Assembly (NCBI GenBank): GCA_048885525.1
Contig: JBHLLP010000071.1
Span: 1-12,053 of the forward strand
Direction: 5' to 3'
DNA from: Candidatus Hermodarchaeota archaeon
Lineage (GTDB): Archaea; Asgardarchaeota; Lokiarchaeia; Sigyniarchaeales; SOKP01
Length of the DNA stretch: 12,053 bases
Shown: piece after piece, positions 2,118-12,053 of the stretch
How positions within the stretch are numbered: position 1 is the first letter of the stretch
Layout of the letters: each line of letters begins with the position of its first letter
Translations under genes and position numbers: made by a program
The notes under the pieces: generated by a model
Told to the model about the DNA's origin: nothing
The model's database searches: none
Seen by the model: only the letters and a program-made list of their open reading frames with translations

Positions 2118-3161
2118 ATGTCAGAAAAGATAATTCACTCTATAATCTATACGTTATTGAATGAAAAAGTTGGTCCACAACCTTATTTATGGGATCCCGT
2201 TGATCTAGAAGATAATATTCGAATATCTGTTAGCATTAAATCAATCACTATTCTTTCAACAGATCAAGGAGTAATTCCTCAATCGTTAGTTATAATTCCT
2301 TTTCCAATGTTCAATTTAAAAGGTGTTATTAAATACATAGAAAGAGAAGATGAAACTAAAAGGGGTGGTGCGGCGATATCATCAATAACCTTATTATTTA
2401 ATGAAGCTTATGACCTTATTTTTTATAAATATATTAATTATCTTGAGTCTGCGTTTACAGAAAGTGCTCAAAAAATTATTGAGTTAGAGAGTAGAAAAGC
2501 TAGTTCTGATGAAATTTATGTTGAACTTACAAATTTAAAAACTAGAACTTCAGAAATTTTAGAGGACTTACGAAATAAAGAAAAAAAAGTCTTTGAAACA
2601 GAAGCTTTTCCTGAGGAAAAAAAAAAAAGAAAAAAAAGAATAAGGTTCAATTTTAAAATAGTCATTTGTGGTGATCCTGGAGTTGGCAAAACAAGTACAA
2701 TATTACATTTTACTGACCATGCCTTTATGCAGACATATATTCCTACATTGGGTGTGTCAATTTCAGAAAAGAGTATTCACACGCAAGATGATCACGTCAA
2801 TTTGATTCTTTGGGATATTGCGGGCCAAAGTAAATTTGAACTTATGAGACGCCATTTTTACAAGGGGCTTGAAGCAGTAATTTTAATATTTGACCTAACA
2901 AATCGCAAATCTTTTGAAAGTATTAAAAATTGGTATAATGATATAAAGAAAAATGTTGGCCCATCGAAAGAAAGTATAATAGGTTTCATTTTAGGAAATA
3001 AAGAAGATTTGGCTTCTGAAAGAGTTATCACATCTGAAGAAGCAATACAGATTGCACGAGAACTTAACTTAGAATATATCGAAATATCTGCGTTAACAGG
3101 TAAAAATGTCGAAGATAGCTTCTATAGGTTAGCAGAAAGTTTAATTAAATCTCAACAATAA
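2118..3161 (+). CDS. Rab-like small GTPase fused to an N-terminal longin/uDENN-like domain, 347 aa
   Basis: The C-terminal ~170 aa carry G1 GDPGVGKT, G2 YIPTLG, G3 WDIAGQ, G4 NKED and G5 SAL. The N-terminal domain has LNEKVGPQP and D-ETK-RG followed by a hydrophobic strand, resembling SMCR8/folliculin/NPRL2-type longin motifs. The GTPase call is secure; the longin call is moderate. Confidence 0.85.
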   Translation: MSEKIIHSIIYTLLNEKVGPQPYLWDPVDLEDNIRISVSIKSITILSTDQGVIPQSLVIIPFPMFNLKGVIKYIEREDETKRGGAAISSITLLFNEAYDLIFYKYINYLESAFTESAQKIIELESRKASSDEIYVELTNLKTRTSEILEDLRNKEKKVFETEAFPEEKKKRKKRIRFNFKIVICGDPGVGKTSTILHFTDHAFMQTYIPTLGVSISEKSIHTQDDHVNLILWDIAGQSKFELMRRHFYKGLEAVILIFDLTNRKSFESIKNWYNDIKKNVGPSKESIIGFILGNKEDLASERVITSEEAIQIARELNLEYIEISALTGKNVEDSFYRLAESLIKSQQ

Positions 3162-3784: not shown

Positions 3785-4336
3785 TTAAACAGAGATTTCC
3801 TTGTATTTAGAATACAACTCGTTAATAATAGCTTTGAAAGCTTCGTGTACTCCTTGACCTGTTTTTGCGGAAGTCTTATAATATCCGAAAAAATCCTTTT
3901 TATCAATAAATTTTAAGATTTTTTCTTCATCGAAGTTTCTCTCATCGATTAAATCTACTTTATTTCCAAATAATACAACGGGTATATCCCCACAAAATTT
4001 CTTTATTTCACCTTGCCAATTTGGAACATGTTTAAAACTTTCTGCACCAAGATCATTTTCTTCAAGGGAAAACACAATAATAGCGGCTAGGCTGGCTTTA
4101 TAAAAAGCAGGACGTAAGAAATGGAAAGTATCTTGGCCTGCAATATCCCAGAAAAATAATTTACAGCTATCATTACCTATTTTTTCGGTATATTTCGAAA
4201 ATTGTGCTCCTATAGTCTGGATATACGCTTCTTCAAAACCCCCTTCTGTAAACTTTCTAATTAGTGAAGTTTTACCTACTTCTCCATCTCCAATAACAGT
4301 TATTTTAAATGTAAATTTATCTCCAGTTTCATTCAT
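3785..4336 (-). CDS. Rab-like (Ras superfamily) small GTPase, 183 aa
   Basis: G1 GDGEVGKT, G2 YIQTIG, G3 WDIAGQ, G4 NKVD and G5 SAK are present. There is no C-terminal Cys prenylation motif. Confidence 0.93.
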   Translation of the reverse strand: MNETGDKFTFKITVIGDGEVGKTSLIRKFTEGGFEEAYIQTIGAQFSKYTEKIGNDSCKLFFWDIAGQDTFHFLRPAFYKASLAAIIVFSLEENDLGAESFKHVPNWQGEIKKFCGDIPVVLFGNKVDLIDERNFDEEKILKFIDKKDFFGYYKTSAKTGQGVHEAFKAIINELYSKYKEISV

Positions 4337-10316: not shown

Positions 10317-11774
10317 TTACTTTAATTCAGGATGTTTTTCCAATTCCTGTCTCATTTGTTCGAGTTTTTCACCATGTAGATCGTAAAATTTAAAGAAGAG
10401 AATTGATCCAACAAGAGCTATTGAAGGAAACAGAAACATCAAAGCTTTTATACCGATTTCTCTTAGCAACGGATCAGCTACAACAGGTATATATCTGCTC
10501 CATCCAGTTCCCGAAAATATAATATAAATAGTTGTAATTCCAAGTATCATTGAAAAACGATGAATAAAAGCATTTACACCATAATAACTAGCAGCTCTTT
10601 TTACGCCAAACTTAAGTGCATCTTGATCAATTACATCACCATGAATTATATCGATAAAGAATAGTGCTGCTGATAATCCAAAACCAATCGTTATAAATAC
10701 AAAAAATGATAATAGTCTACTTATATCATTATTTGATAAAAGAGTTAAAGGAAATAATGTAATTATCCATATTCCTAAGCCAATCATTAATCCTTTACGA
10801 GTACCATATTTCTTTCTAATTCTTACTTGAACGGGCATAAAGAATGCAGCAGATAATAATGCTAGCATTAAAGTAACTCCAATCAATAAGGTCCCTTCAG
10901 TCCTTCCTAATACATAAACGGCGTAGAGTGGAAATACCGTTAATAACACATTAAAACAATACCAGATAAGCATATTTCCTAGTGTAAATTTTATAAACGT
11001 TCGATTTGAAAATGTAATTTTCAATGATTGGAAAAATCCTGGTCTTTTTTCGAAATCACTTGTTTGTTCTTCTTTTTCTTTCACACCAAAGAAAATAAAC
11101 AAAATTGCAGTGATTACTATTATTACAGCTAGTACTGTACCAGAAATTACATATTTAGATTGAATACTAGCAACTTCTGCGGCATAACCTACTGGATCAA
11201 CTAGTGGATCAATTTCTGGAACTAACGAAGGAGTAACTATAATAGTTGGAATTAATGAAGCAAGTATTACTGCAATCATTGTAAAAGCTTTAATAAATAC
11301 GTTTACATCTCCTCTTTGCTTTTCCGTTGGGAACATTTCAGGGAAAACAGCATTAGTATTTACTGAAAACATTGTGTAAAAGAATTCAAAGGTGAAAATT
11401 ATGAAGATAAAATACCAAAACTTAAAATTTGCAGGTGCAGTAAAAAGAAAAATCATTATCAACGCTAAAGGAACAAAGGATATTATCAAATAAAATTTCC
11501 TTTTTCCTAATTTTCCTTTCTGCTTTGTTTTCTCACTTAATGCTCCCAATAATGGATCATTAAACATATTCCAGATACCCCATAAGGAGAATCCAATCCA
11601 CATTTCAAGCATTGAAAGCCCTACGACTGCAAAATAAAAAGTAAACACATAAATCGTAAACGCTTGATATGTAATTTAATCTTTGGTGACGTTATAATTC
11701 ACTCAAATTTGATCTGGAAAAGCGTTTGCACCAAATAGTATTTTCTCTTTTAATGATACTTTTCTTTCACTCAT
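10317..11774 (-). CDS. GPH (MelB-like) family MFS transporter in two exons, 11709-11774 and 10317-11675, 474 aa after splicing
   Basis: The body has WNMFNDPLLGALSE, GKRK and DVIDQD...G.KRAASYYG. The ORF-track start (GTG 11648) truncates TM1. In-frame ATG 11774 gives MSERKVSLKEKILFGANAFPDQ, a typical GPH N-terminus, which joins ITYQAFTIYVFTFYF after removal of 33 nt. Confidence 0.85.
11676..11708 (-). other. Putative 33-nt bulge-helix-bulge (BHB) mRNA intron
   Basis: The insert AUUUGAGUGAAUUAUAACGUCACCAAAGAUUAA contains in-frame UGA (11703-11705) and UAA (11676-11678). The central helix is GAUC/GAUU, with two AAA bulges, an intron stem UUUG-A-GUGA/UCAC-CAAA and an exon-exon helix AAACGCUU/AAGCGUUU. 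Confidence 0.82.
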
Positions 11775-11921
11775 ATAATTTCCCTAGTTTAGTTTTAAAA
11801 TTAATTAAAAAATAATTAAATGTAATTAAATCTTGATCTTTTTAAAACTATATCAATACTTATTCAGAATAACTTTAACCTCAATAATATTCATTTAATT
11901 AGAATCATATTTTACATTAAT

Positions 11922-11940
11922 AAAAAAAGAGTATTATAAA
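11922..11940 (+). promoter_or_regulatory. BRE/TATA-like promoter
   Basis: A purine-rich run AAAAAAAGAG is followed by TATTATAAA, about 28-36 nt upstream of ATG 11968. Confidence 0.45.
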
Positions 11941-11967
11941 TTTGAAAATTCTAGAGCGTGATGTAAT

Positions 11968-12053
11968 ATGGCAGATTTAAATATTGAAGTTACTTATTTT
12001 GAAAAGGGTGGACCACATAATACTGATAAAGCTTTACAAATTGCTAAAAAATA
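11968..12053 (+). CDS. Partial CDS running off the window: pyruvate-kinase alpha/beta-like domain protein (COG1751/MTH1675-like)
   Basis: Translates as MADLNIEVTYFEKGGPHNTDKALQIAKK. The YFExxGxxNTxxxL pattern resembles the N-terminus of this archaeal family, but only 28 codons are visible. Confidence 0.65.
   Translation, partial: MADLNIEVTYFEKGGPHNTDKALQIAKK

What the first reader, a model, noticed from the sequence alone, without database searches (positions are those of the whole stretch)
11658..11727. Candidate BHB-type mRNA intron interrupting an MFS transporter gene in a probable Asgard archaeon
Seen: from ATG 11774 (-) the frame reads ...FGANAFPDQ I*VNYNVTKD* ITYQAFTIYVFTFYF..., an 11-codon insert with two stops inside TM1. 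The RNA folds as follows: 8-bp exon-exon helix (11720-11727/11658-11665), internal loop plus one A-U pair, 4-bp central helix GAUC (11711-11714)/GAUU (11678-11681), a 3-nt AAA bulge 3' of each central strand (11708-11710 and 11675-11677), and an 8-bp intron stem with a 9-nt loop. Established: the archaeal tRNA splicing endonuclease EndA cuts after the second nucleotide of each bulge and RtcB ligates. Applying that rule removes exactly 11676-11708 (33 nt) and gives CCA GAU CAA|AUU ACA UAU (PDQITY), a 474-aa protein. The classic archaeal mRNA intron example is crenarchaeal cbf5; I am not aware of one in a transporter gene. Inference: expression depends on splicing, conceptually like the non-spliceosomal HAC1/XBP1 splicing of eukaryotes, and such introns may be hidden genome-wide as apparent truncated genes. 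Caveat: the pairing directly outside the 3' bulge is only one A-U, so this is a relaxed BHB.
Basis: partly seen in the sequence, partly recalled or inferred. Interest (0 to 1): 0.95.

Follow-up and report, generated by a model that had tools for sequence, protein, structure and literature searches.

The report
tRNA-type mini-intron in Asgard transporter gene
A sugar-transporter-type gene of an uncultured Asgard (Promethearchaeota) archaeon is interrupted by a 33-base hairpin with stop codons that has the shape cut by the tRNA-splicing enzyme, and comparison of about 50 related genes indicates it is a real intron removed from the mRNA, a kind of splicing that the papers I could search document for only two archaeal genes.

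Summary
No RNA data exist for this gene, so splicing is inferred.

Evidence for a bulge-helix-bulge (BHB) mRNA intron:
- Nine independent assemblies carry the insert. 41 distinct orthologues lack exactly these 33 nt and read PDQ-[L/I/M/V]-[T/S]YQ.
- Insert-bearing genes are under the same purifying selection as intact ones (omega 0.11 versus 0.115).
- Only 7 of 33 insert columns vary, against 69% of synonymous sites. Every stem change is a pair-keeping wobble change.
- Cutting after the second base of each bulge gives an in-frame product in all eight distinct sequences.
- The genome encodes two EndA paralogues (crenarchaeal-type catalytic subunit) and RtcB.
- Two other genes of this genome have 30-nt inserts of the same shape, patchy across the genus.

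Caveats:
- The 3' bulge is backed by only one outer pair (relaxed BHB).
- The fold is not unusually stable.
- There are no double compensatory changes.

This scan had already noted similar introns in this and other Asgard genomes. Verdict: a new member of a known kind (cbf5-type mRNA intron), confidence about 0.78.

The parts
11709..11774 (-). 5' exon: 22 codons, MSERKVSLKEKILFGANAFPDQ. It encodes the N-terminus and the start of TM1 (MFS_2 profile positions 2-10).
   Evidence: The spliced N-terminus fits MFS_2 profile positions 2-62 without a gap. The peptide is conserved, with mostly synonymous changes, among intron-bearing alleles.
11676..11708 (-). 33-nt intron (AUUUGAGUGAAUUAUAACGUCACCAAAGAUUAA) with in-frame TGA and TAA. 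The predicted EndA cuts fall after A11709 and after A11676.
   Evidence: It is absent, to the base, from 41 distinct orthologues and present in 9. Seven of 33 columns vary, against 69% of synonymous sites.
10317..11675 (-). 3' exon: 452 codons plus a stop, starting ITYQAFTIYVFTFYF. This is the rest of the MFS_2 / GPH-type transporter.
   Evidence: Pfam MFS_2, 145 bits. dN/dS is 0.075-0.155 among intron-bearing alleles.
11711..11714 (-). Central helix, 5' strand (GAUC, exon side).
   Evidence: It pairs with 11678-11681 in 8 of 8 sequences.
11678..11681 (-). Central helix, 3' strand (GAUU; in relatives GAUC, GGUC or GGUU).
   Evidence: Variation is by wobble only: G-U/G-C and U-A/U-G.
11708..11710 (-). 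5' bulge AAA. The predicted cut lies between 11709 and 11708.
   Evidence: The cut rule (between the second and third bulge bases) is stated in PMC2738675.
11675..11677 (-). 3' bulge AAA (AAU in some relatives). The predicted cut lies between 11676 and 11675. The third base becomes the first base of the Ile/Leu codon.
11682..11707 (-). Intron hairpin: an 8-bp stem (11707-11704 and 11702-11699 with 11689-11682, A11703 bulged) and a 9-nt loop (11698-11690).
   Evidence: Four of the 9 loop columns vary. One stem column varies (G-C to G-U).
11674..11715 (-). Whole BHB core, closed by the single outer pair A11715-U11674 (G-U in two relatives).
   Evidence: pair 21-62: AU in 6 sequences, GU in 2.
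11720..11727 (-). Exon-exon helix, 5' strand (AAACGCUU).
   Evidence: 8 of 8 pairs with 11658-11665 in all nine intron alleles. Intronless orthologues average 6.2 of 8.
11658..11665 (-). Exon-exon helix, 3' strand (AAGCGUUU).

Best explanation
The 33 nt at 11708-11676 (-) are a relaxed bulge-helix-bulge (BHB, HBh'/BHL-like) intron inside the coding sequence of an MFS_2/GPH-type transporter mRNA of a Promethearchaeota (Lokiarchaeia-type Asgard) archaeon.

Proposed mechanism:
1. The pre-mRNA folds so that exon bases GAUC pair with intron bases GAUU. A 3-nt AAA bulge lies 3' of each strand, and the intron hairpin stacks on the inner side.
2. The heteromeric tRNA-splicing endonuclease (EndA alpha and beta paralogues of this genome) cuts after the second base of each bulge.
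3. RtcB joins ...GAUCAA to AUUACA...
4. The result is an uninterrupted 474-aa transporter (PDQ|ITYQ) and a 33-nt, probably circular, intron.
5. Unspliced RNA can only give a 23-aa peptide.

Shown here: the insert, its fold, its exact absence from orthologues, purifying selection on both exons and on the insert, and presence of the enzymes.
Inferred: the cleavage, the ligation and the circle.

The intron was probably gained once in the ancestor of one sub-clade of this gene and then lost precisely several times.
For: 1. Orthology. Nine independent assemblies carry the 33 nt, and 41 distinct orthologues lack exactly these bases and read PDQ-[LIMV]-[T/S]YQ.

2. Function is kept. dS among intron alleles has a median of 0.59. 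Omega is 0.109, the same as for intronless alleles of the same clade (0.115). Exon 1 keeps its ATG, its frame and its peptide.

3. The insert is constrained as RNA.
- 7 of 33 columns vary, against 204 of 295 synonymous third positions (Fisher P = 1.2e-7).
- Four of the variable columns are in the loop.
- The three variable columns in stems, and the one variable outer pair, all keep pairing by wobble changes.
- 168 of 168 cells are paired, against 24-45% when the partners are slid.
- RNAalifold predicts the same fold.
- 9 of 10 exon codons inside the helices are invariant, against a background of 29.5% (P = 1.2e-4).

4. One rule fits all. Cutting after bulge base 2 gives an in-frame I or L codon in all eight distinct sequences. 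The spliced N-terminus fits Pfam MFS_2 profile positions 2-62 without a gap. The unspliced readthrough product matches only from profile position 11, and the GTG ORF only from position 23.

5. Enzymes are present.
- There are two EndA paralogues.
- One aligns end to end with the Aeropyrum pernix catalytic subunit 3P1Z_B.
- Reading the two ORF sequences myself (no alignment run), the first keeps candidate catalytic Tyr, His and Lys residues and the second has no His at the matching place. It is therefore beta-like, and its best solved match is 1A79.
- RtcB is present.
- Asgard EndAs are reported as (alpha-beta)2 enzymes with the broad-specificity L1 loop (PMC5829648).

6. Not a one-off. Two other genes of this genome have 30-nt BHB-shaped, stop-bearing inserts that are patchy in the genus:
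- an AMP-phosphorylase-like gene, insert in about 21 of 47 genomes;
- a gene at C7:103494-104231, insert in about 18 of 50 genomes.

7. tRNA genes of this genome are intron-rich, as reported for Asgard archaea (bioRxiv 10.64898/2026.10.13.758758).
Against: - No RNA evidence: spliced reads, the intron circle and cleavage have not been observed for this gene.
- The helix directly outside the 3' bulge is a single A-U/G-U pair followed by a 4 x 8-nt internal loop, so the strict hBHBh' definition is not met.
- The fold is not more stable than shuffled sequence (z = -0.37).
- Stem variation is one-sided (wobble) only. There are no double compensatory changes, and the nine alleles are close kin.
- The exon-exon helix is mostly dictated by the amino-acid sequence.
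- The direct repeat GATCAAAT/GATTAAAT at the borders would also allow precise DNA deletion by slippage. Precise loss therefore does not by itself prove an RNA intermediate.
Confidence: 0.78

Rival explanations
1. The insert is not removed. The functional protein starts downstream: at the GTG inside the insert (as gene callers annotate it) or at GTG 11648. Exon 1 would then be a leader or upstream ORF.
For: Public annotations of insert-bearing alleles start at the intronic GTG (P0001 VNYKVTKGQLTYQ..., P0004 MNYIVTKDQITYQ...). In alleles where TAA has become CAA, that ORF is open into exon 2.
Against: - In G000, G014 and Ga0209635 the TAA closes that ORF.
- GTG 11648 is GTT or ATT in other insert alleles.
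- Exon 1 keeps its ATG, its frame and its peptide, with mostly synonymous change, and encodes MFS_2 profile positions 2-10.
- Changes inside the insert are mostly non-synonymous or create and remove stops. They follow RNA pairing, not codons.
Confidence: 0.07
2. Programmed translational bypass (hopping), as in phage T4 gene 60. The ribosome would take off at the codon before UGA, skip the hairpin and land 33 nt downstream.
For: In G000 the codon AUU before UGA is matched by AUU exactly 33 nt downstream, and a hairpin starts at the stop. The product would be the same PDQITYQ.
Against: - The matched pair is not conserved. The AUU landing codon exists only in G000.
- A CAA/CAA pair exists in 5 of 8 sequences.
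- G014 has neither.
- Bypass is not known in archaea (my own knowledge).
- Two other genes have inserts of the same BHB shape.
Confidence: 0.03
3. The gene is a disrupted pseudogene: a hairpin insertion, or a small mobile element with a target duplication.
For: There are in-frame stops, an imperfect 9-nt direct repeat at the borders, and several paralogous MFS_2 genes in the genome that could compensate.
Against: - Omega is 0.11 over dS up to 1.27 in nine lineages, equal to the intact alleles.
- There are no further stops or frameshifts.
- The insert itself is conserved far beyond synonymous sites.
- The insert sequence occurs nowhere else in the genome.
Confidence: 0.03
4. The insert is removed from the RNA, but by another route than EndA/RtcB (another nuclease or ligase, or self-cleavage).
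For: The 3' site is a poor canonical bulge, and no enzyme assay exists.
Against: - The geometry is the one EndA needs: a 4-bp helix with 3-nt bulges 3' of each strand.
- The EndA cut rule gives the exact frame in all alleles.
- 33 nt is too short for a group I or group II intron.
- Relaxed motifs are cut by (alpha-beta)2 enzymes in cbf5 (PMC2738675, PMC10485636).
Confidence: 0.05
5. Assembly or sequencing artefact.
For: None beyond the short contig (12 kb).
Against: The same insert, with small differences, is present in nine assemblies from different studies. Logan contigs of two runs cover 11364-11708 and 11699-12053 with zero to three differences.
Confidence: 0.01

Closest known systems
BHB intron in the cbf5 (pseudouridine synthase) pre-mRNA of Crenarchaeota (Watanabe 2002; Yoshinari 2006; Yokobori 2009, PMC2738675)
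   Same: - A short intron inside a coding sequence.
- A relaxed BHB motif.
- Predicted cuts between the second and third bulge bases.
- A host with a heteromeric (alpha-beta)2 endonuclease.
- One gain followed by precise losses within a clade.
   Different: - A different gene (a membrane transporter, not an RNA-modification enzyme).
- A different phylum (Promethearchaeota / Asgard).
- Splicing is confirmed by cDNA for cbf5, but only inferred here.
HVO_1309 mRNA intron of Haloferax volcanii (Schwarz 2020, PMC7714728; reviewed in PMC10485636)
   Same: An archaeal mRNA cut by the tRNA-splicing endonuclease at a BHB, with the spliced RNA seen.
   Different: The enzyme there is the homodimeric form, written alpha2 in PMC10485636.
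Non-canonical tRNA introns of Asgard and TACK archaea (Marck and Grosjean 2003; bioRxiv 10.64898/2026.10.13.758758)
   Same: The same motif, the same size range and the same enzymes. This genome's tRNA genes are also intron-rich.
   Different: The host RNA is an mRNA, so removal must restore a reading frame, and retention gives a truncated peptide.
HAC1/XBP1 unconventional splicing in eukaryotes
   Same: Non-spliceosomal, endonuclease-plus-ligase removal of a short intron from an mRNA. RtcB is the ligase in animals.
   Different: The nuclease is IRE1, which recognises stem-loops, not a BHB, and the event is stress-regulated. No regulation is shown here.
Translational bypass of T4 gene 60
   Same: A short stop-containing gap with a hairpin inside a coding sequence.
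   Different: It needs matched take-off and landing codons, which are not conserved here.

Membership tests
Archaeal BHB intron (EndA/RtcB substrate) | [quoted passage not shown] | tested here: met
   GAUC/GAUU pairs in the minimum-free-energy fold. It is paired in 8 of 8 sequences, with wobble-only variation.
Archaeal BHB intron (EndA/RtcB substrate) | Two 3-nt bulges on opposite strands, each 3' of its central-helix strand | tested here: met
   AAA at 11710-11708 and AAA at 11677-11675 (AAU in relatives).
Archaeal BHB intron (EndA/RtcB substrate) | Strict hBHBh': helices of at least 2 bp flanking both bulges | tested here: not met
   The inner helix is 8 bp, but the outer helix next to the 3' bulge is a single A-U/G-U pair followed by a 4 x 8-nt internal loop.
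Archaeal BHB intron (EndA/RtcB substrate) | Relaxed form (HBh'/BHL) accepted by (alpha-beta)2 endonucleases: one well-formed bulge with central and inner helix, and the second site in a bulge or loop | tested here: met
   The 5' site is fully formed and the 3' site lies in a bulge or loop. The cbf5 motifs are likewise unconventional (PMC2738675).
Archaeal BHB intron (EndA/RtcB substrate) | Cuts after the second bulge base give the junction seen in uninterrupted homologues | tested here: met
   The product is PDQ|I/L-TYQ in all 8 sequences. 41 distinct intronless orthologues read PDQ-[LIMV]-[T/S]YQ. The Pfam fit is ungapped.
Archaeal BHB intron (EndA/RtcB substrate) | The host encodes a splicing endonuclease of the broad-specificity type and the RtcB ligase | tested here: met
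   Two EndA paralogues are present, the alpha-like one matching A. pernix 3P1Z_B end to end. RtcB scores 571 bits. The subunit type is inferred from sequence, not assayed.
Archaeal BHB intron (EndA/RtcB substrate) | Spliced RNA and excised (circular) intron observed | not testable with these tools
   No RNA run holds the stretch.
Programmed translational bypass | Matched take-off and landing codons conserved across alleles | tested here: not met
   The AUU/AUU pair exists only in G000, the CAA/CAA pair in 5 of 8 sequences, and neither in G014.
MFS_2 / GPH transporter (the host gene) | Pfam PF13347 above the gathering score across twelve-helix length | tested here: met
   145-151 bits against a cut-off of 27. 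The orthologue L065 covers profile positions 2-425.

The most novel reading that the evidence does not exclude
EndA/RtcB splicing of protein-coding mRNAs is a routine, genome-wide part of gene expression in Promethearchaeota. Many genes per genome would carry about 30-nt BHB mini-introns that are gained, kept under selection and precisely lost, as tRNA introns are. This transporter intron would be one of them, and intron retention could gate expression. The closest archaeal relatives of eukaryotes would then already depend on mRNA splicing, by a non-spliceosomal route.
Probability: 0.55. Interest if true: 0.85.

Novelty: new member of a known kind. Interest (0 to 1): 0.66.

Why it matters
In the papers I could search, endonuclease-type splicing of archaeal mRNA is documented for only two genes: cbf5 in Crenarchaeota and HVO_1309 in Haloferax. 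A 2023 review states that more probably remain to be found (PMC10485636). I found no paper reporting such introns in Asgard protein genes.

This case adds three things:
- an ordinary membrane-transporter gene in the phylum closest to eukaryotes;
- population-genetic style evidence (selection on exons, intron and pairing) that the interrupted gene is in use;
- a clear gain-and-loss history.

In practice, public annotations of these alleles are wrong: they start at a GTG inside the intron or lose TM1. Gene callers therefore need a BHB-aware step for Asgard genomes.

As a single instance it is incremental, because this scan had already noted similar introns in this and other Asgard genomes.

Tried and rejected
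1. RNA evidence. No RNA holder was listed for the gene. Only DNA-type Logan contigs could be laid. They cover the insert and also show intronless alleles of other strains as loose ends. They say nothing on expression.

2. Genome-wide BHB plus ORF-joining scan of G000 against a mirrored-geometry decoy.
- Loose motif: 9,573 loci against 9,646 for the decoy.
- Stricter cuts also gave no excess.
- Requiring a paralogue alignment across the junction gave 19 against 16.
- Requiring an inner helix of at least 6 bp and both flanks of at least 50 codons gave 123 against 106.
The scan is not discriminating in a 29% GC genome. It neither supports nor refutes genome-wide spread. It did recover the AMP-phosphorylase insert and one new case that I then checked.

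3. The intron sequence has no other copy in the genome, so it is not a repeated mobile element.

4. The PDB sequence search gave MFSD2A-type hits that start after TM1. They were no help for the junction.

5. The metagenome scan added only one further intron allele.

6. A protein database search for a near-identical 474-aa (spliced-length) product found none above 91% identity. The 474-aa hits I read (P0002, P0006, P0013, P0020) read as intronless alleles of other lineages.

7. Selenocysteine or stop readthrough was rejected. TAA is present in several alleles, and the 11 residues would place charges in TM1.

Full report
**What is there.**
The window is a whole 12,053-bp contig (C71) of a 3.58-Mb, 29.4% GC genome that is 99% complete.
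- On the minus strand an MFS_2/GPH-type transporter gene starts at ATG 11774. It reads MSERKVSLKEKILFGANAFPDQ, then eleven in-frame codons with TGA and TAA, then ITYQAFTIYVFTFYF... to a stop at 10317.
- The longest conventional ORF (GTG 11648, 443 aa) matches Pfam MFS_2 only from profile position 23, so it lacks TM1.
- A readthrough product matches from position 11, directly after the insert.
- The product without 11708-11676 is 474 aa.
- Its first 76 residues fit profile positions 2-62 without a gap, as an uninterrupted orthologue does.

**The fold.**
- That placement of the bulges, 3' of each central strand, is my reading of the canonical geometry, based on my own knowledge of pre-tRNA BHB motifs.
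- Cutting between the second and third bulge bases is the rule stated for cbf5 (PMC2738675). It removes exactly 33 nt.
- The fold is not unusually stable (z = -0.37). The case therefore rests on geometry and comparison, not on energy.

**Who has it.**
Orthologue contigs are titled Promethearchaeota/Promethearchaeia MAGs, and the window holds two Ras-family GTPase genes.
- In the genus, 35 of 54 genomes have the orthologue, and four of them carry the insert with stops.
- Named genome records and one metagenome contig raise this to nine independent insert-bearing assemblies with eight distinct sequences.
- Forty-one distinct orthologues lack precisely these 33 nt and read PDQ-[L/I/M/V]-[T/S]YQ.
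- On a 50-row protein tree all nine insert rows fall in one 20-row clade (SH-aLRT 96) together with 11 intronless rows. The 30 rows outside all lack the insert.
- The simplest history is one gain and several exact losses, as described for cbf5 (PMC2738675).
- Because the borders carry an imperfect direct repeat (GATCAAAT/GATTAAAT), loss by DNA slippage is as possible as loss through a spliced RNA copy.

**Is the gene alive?**
- Among insert-bearing alleles dS has a median of 0.59 (up to 1.27) and omega a median of 0.109.
- Intronless alleles of the same clade give omega 0.115. Selection is not relaxed, so a pseudogene is very unlikely.
- Exon 1 keeps its start, frame and peptide, with mostly synonymous differences.
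- The downstream GTG is GTT or ATT in other insert alleles.
- An ORF from the GTG inside the insert is closed by TAA in three alleles, although gene callers use it where it is open.

**Is the insert constrained as RNA?**
- Among the same sequences, 69% of synonymous third positions vary but only 7 of 33 insert columns do (Fisher P = 1.2e-7).
- Four of the seven variable columns lie in the 9-nt loop.
- The three in stems, and the variable outer pair, are all wobble changes that keep pairing (G-C/G-U, U-A/U-G, A-U/G-U).
- All 168 pair cells are standard pairs, against 24-45% when the partners are slid. RNAalifold returns the same structure.
- Nine of ten exon codons that lie in the central and outer helices are invariant, against a background of 29.5% (P = 1.2e-4).
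- Limits: the alleles are close kin, no pair shows a change on both sides, and five of the eight exon-exon pairs are fixed by the amino acids (intronless orthologues average 6.2 of 8 pairs).

**One rule for all alleles.**
- The cut rule gives an in-frame Ile or Leu codon in all eight distinct sequences. The third base of the 3' bulge becomes the first base of that codon (A or U).
- Translational bypass would need matched take-off and landing codons. AUU/AUU exists only in G000, CAA/CAA in five of eight, and G014 has neither.

**Enzymes and context.**
- The genome has two EndA paralogues.
  - One aligns end to end with the catalytic subunit of the Aeropyrum pernix (alpha-beta)2 enzyme.
  - By my reading of the two ORF sequences (no alignment was run), the other lacks a His at the place of the catalytic histidine.
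  - RtcB is also present.
- Asgard EndAs are reported to carry the loop that gives broad specificity (PMC5829648).
- tRNA genes here are intron-rich.
- Two other genes of this genome show the same thing, each with a 30-nt BHB-shaped insert carrying stops:
  - An AMP-phosphorylase-like gene is split inside DKHST|GGVPGNK. The insert is present in about 21 of 47 congeners (the lead came from an earlier scan note).
  - A gene at C7:103494-104231, found by my own motif scan, carries an insert in about 18 of 50 congeners.
- My attempts at a genome-wide count by motif were not discriminating against a mirrored decoy.

**What is missing.**
No RNA run holds this gene, so cleavage, ligation and the circular intron are inferred. 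Earlier notes of this scan report exactly spliced RNA for other Asgard genes. I did not test those.

**Comparison and novelty.**
- The closest known case is the cbf5 pre-mRNA intron of Crenarchaeota. A Haloferax mRNA intron (HVO_1309) is the only other documented case in the papers I could search. A 2023 review expects more (PMC10485636).
- I found no paper on BHB introns in Asgard protein genes.
- This is therefore a new member of a known kind, in a new gene class and phylum. It is one instance of what appears to be a wider, unpublished phenomenon that this scan has already met repeatedly.

Noticed in passing
G000 contig C6, about 109030-109075 (+) (locus L152 about 1031-1076): An AMP-phosphorylase-like gene (Glycos_trans_3N / Glycos_transf_3 / PYNP_C) is split inside the DKHST|GGVPGNK motif by a 30-nt insert with TAA. 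The insert has a 9-bp hairpin, central helix UAGC/GUUA and bulges ACA/AAA. About 21 of 47 genus genomes carry an insert with stops at this place, and the rest are 30 nt shorter.
   Followed up: partly
G000 contig C7:103494-104231 (-) (locus L153), insert at about 103979-104015: A gene of unknown family (...KEKYWD|WGSGDILDENN...) carries a 30-nt BHB-shaped insert with TAA. It was found by my own motif scan. About 18 of 50 genus genomes have stops here, and the others are about 30 nt shorter.
   Followed up: partly
window 11833-11851 (-): The motif ATAGTTTTAAAAAGATCAA, about 60-75 nt upstream of ATG 11774, is conserved in nearly all orthologues, with or without the intron. It is probably the TATA/BRE promoter region, which shows that transcription starts upstream of exon 1.
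   Followed up: no
proteins P0001, P0004 (and by length P0003, P0007, P0010, P0012, P0014, P0018, P0019, P0021): Database gene calls (JGI, Logan) for insert-bearing alleles start at the GTG/ATG inside the intron (VNYKVTKGQLTYQ...). By their length, several NCBI 'MFS transporter' records of 459-461 aa probably do too. These records would have a wrong N-terminus.
   Followed up: partly
loci L122, L124 (metagenome contigs), N-terminus of the orthologue: Two orthologues have an extra in-frame 24 nt near the start (MSEERLEVEAVNGSRSLKQK... against MSEERSRRLKQK...), without stops. Separately, a 27-nt in-frame length difference in an early loop splits the clade (483-aa against 474-aa forms). Neither was examined for RNA structure.
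   Followed up: no
window 2118-3161 (+) and 3785-4336 (-): There are two Ras-family small GTPase genes, one with a 170-aa N-terminal extension. These are typical eukaryote-like signature proteins of Asgard archaea.
   Followed up: no
whole genome G000: ARAGORN finds only 34 tRNA genes, and flags 21 of them with introns, some implausibly long. This suggests many tRNA genes with non-canonical or multiple introns that standard tools miss.
   Followed up: no
G000 contig C13, about 14045-14083 (-) (locus L154): A 32-nt BHB-shaped candidate joins ...QEKELHNEMV|GVGNPIAATMGQKV... It would correct a frameshift. It came from my motif scan and was not compared with relatives.
   Followed up: no
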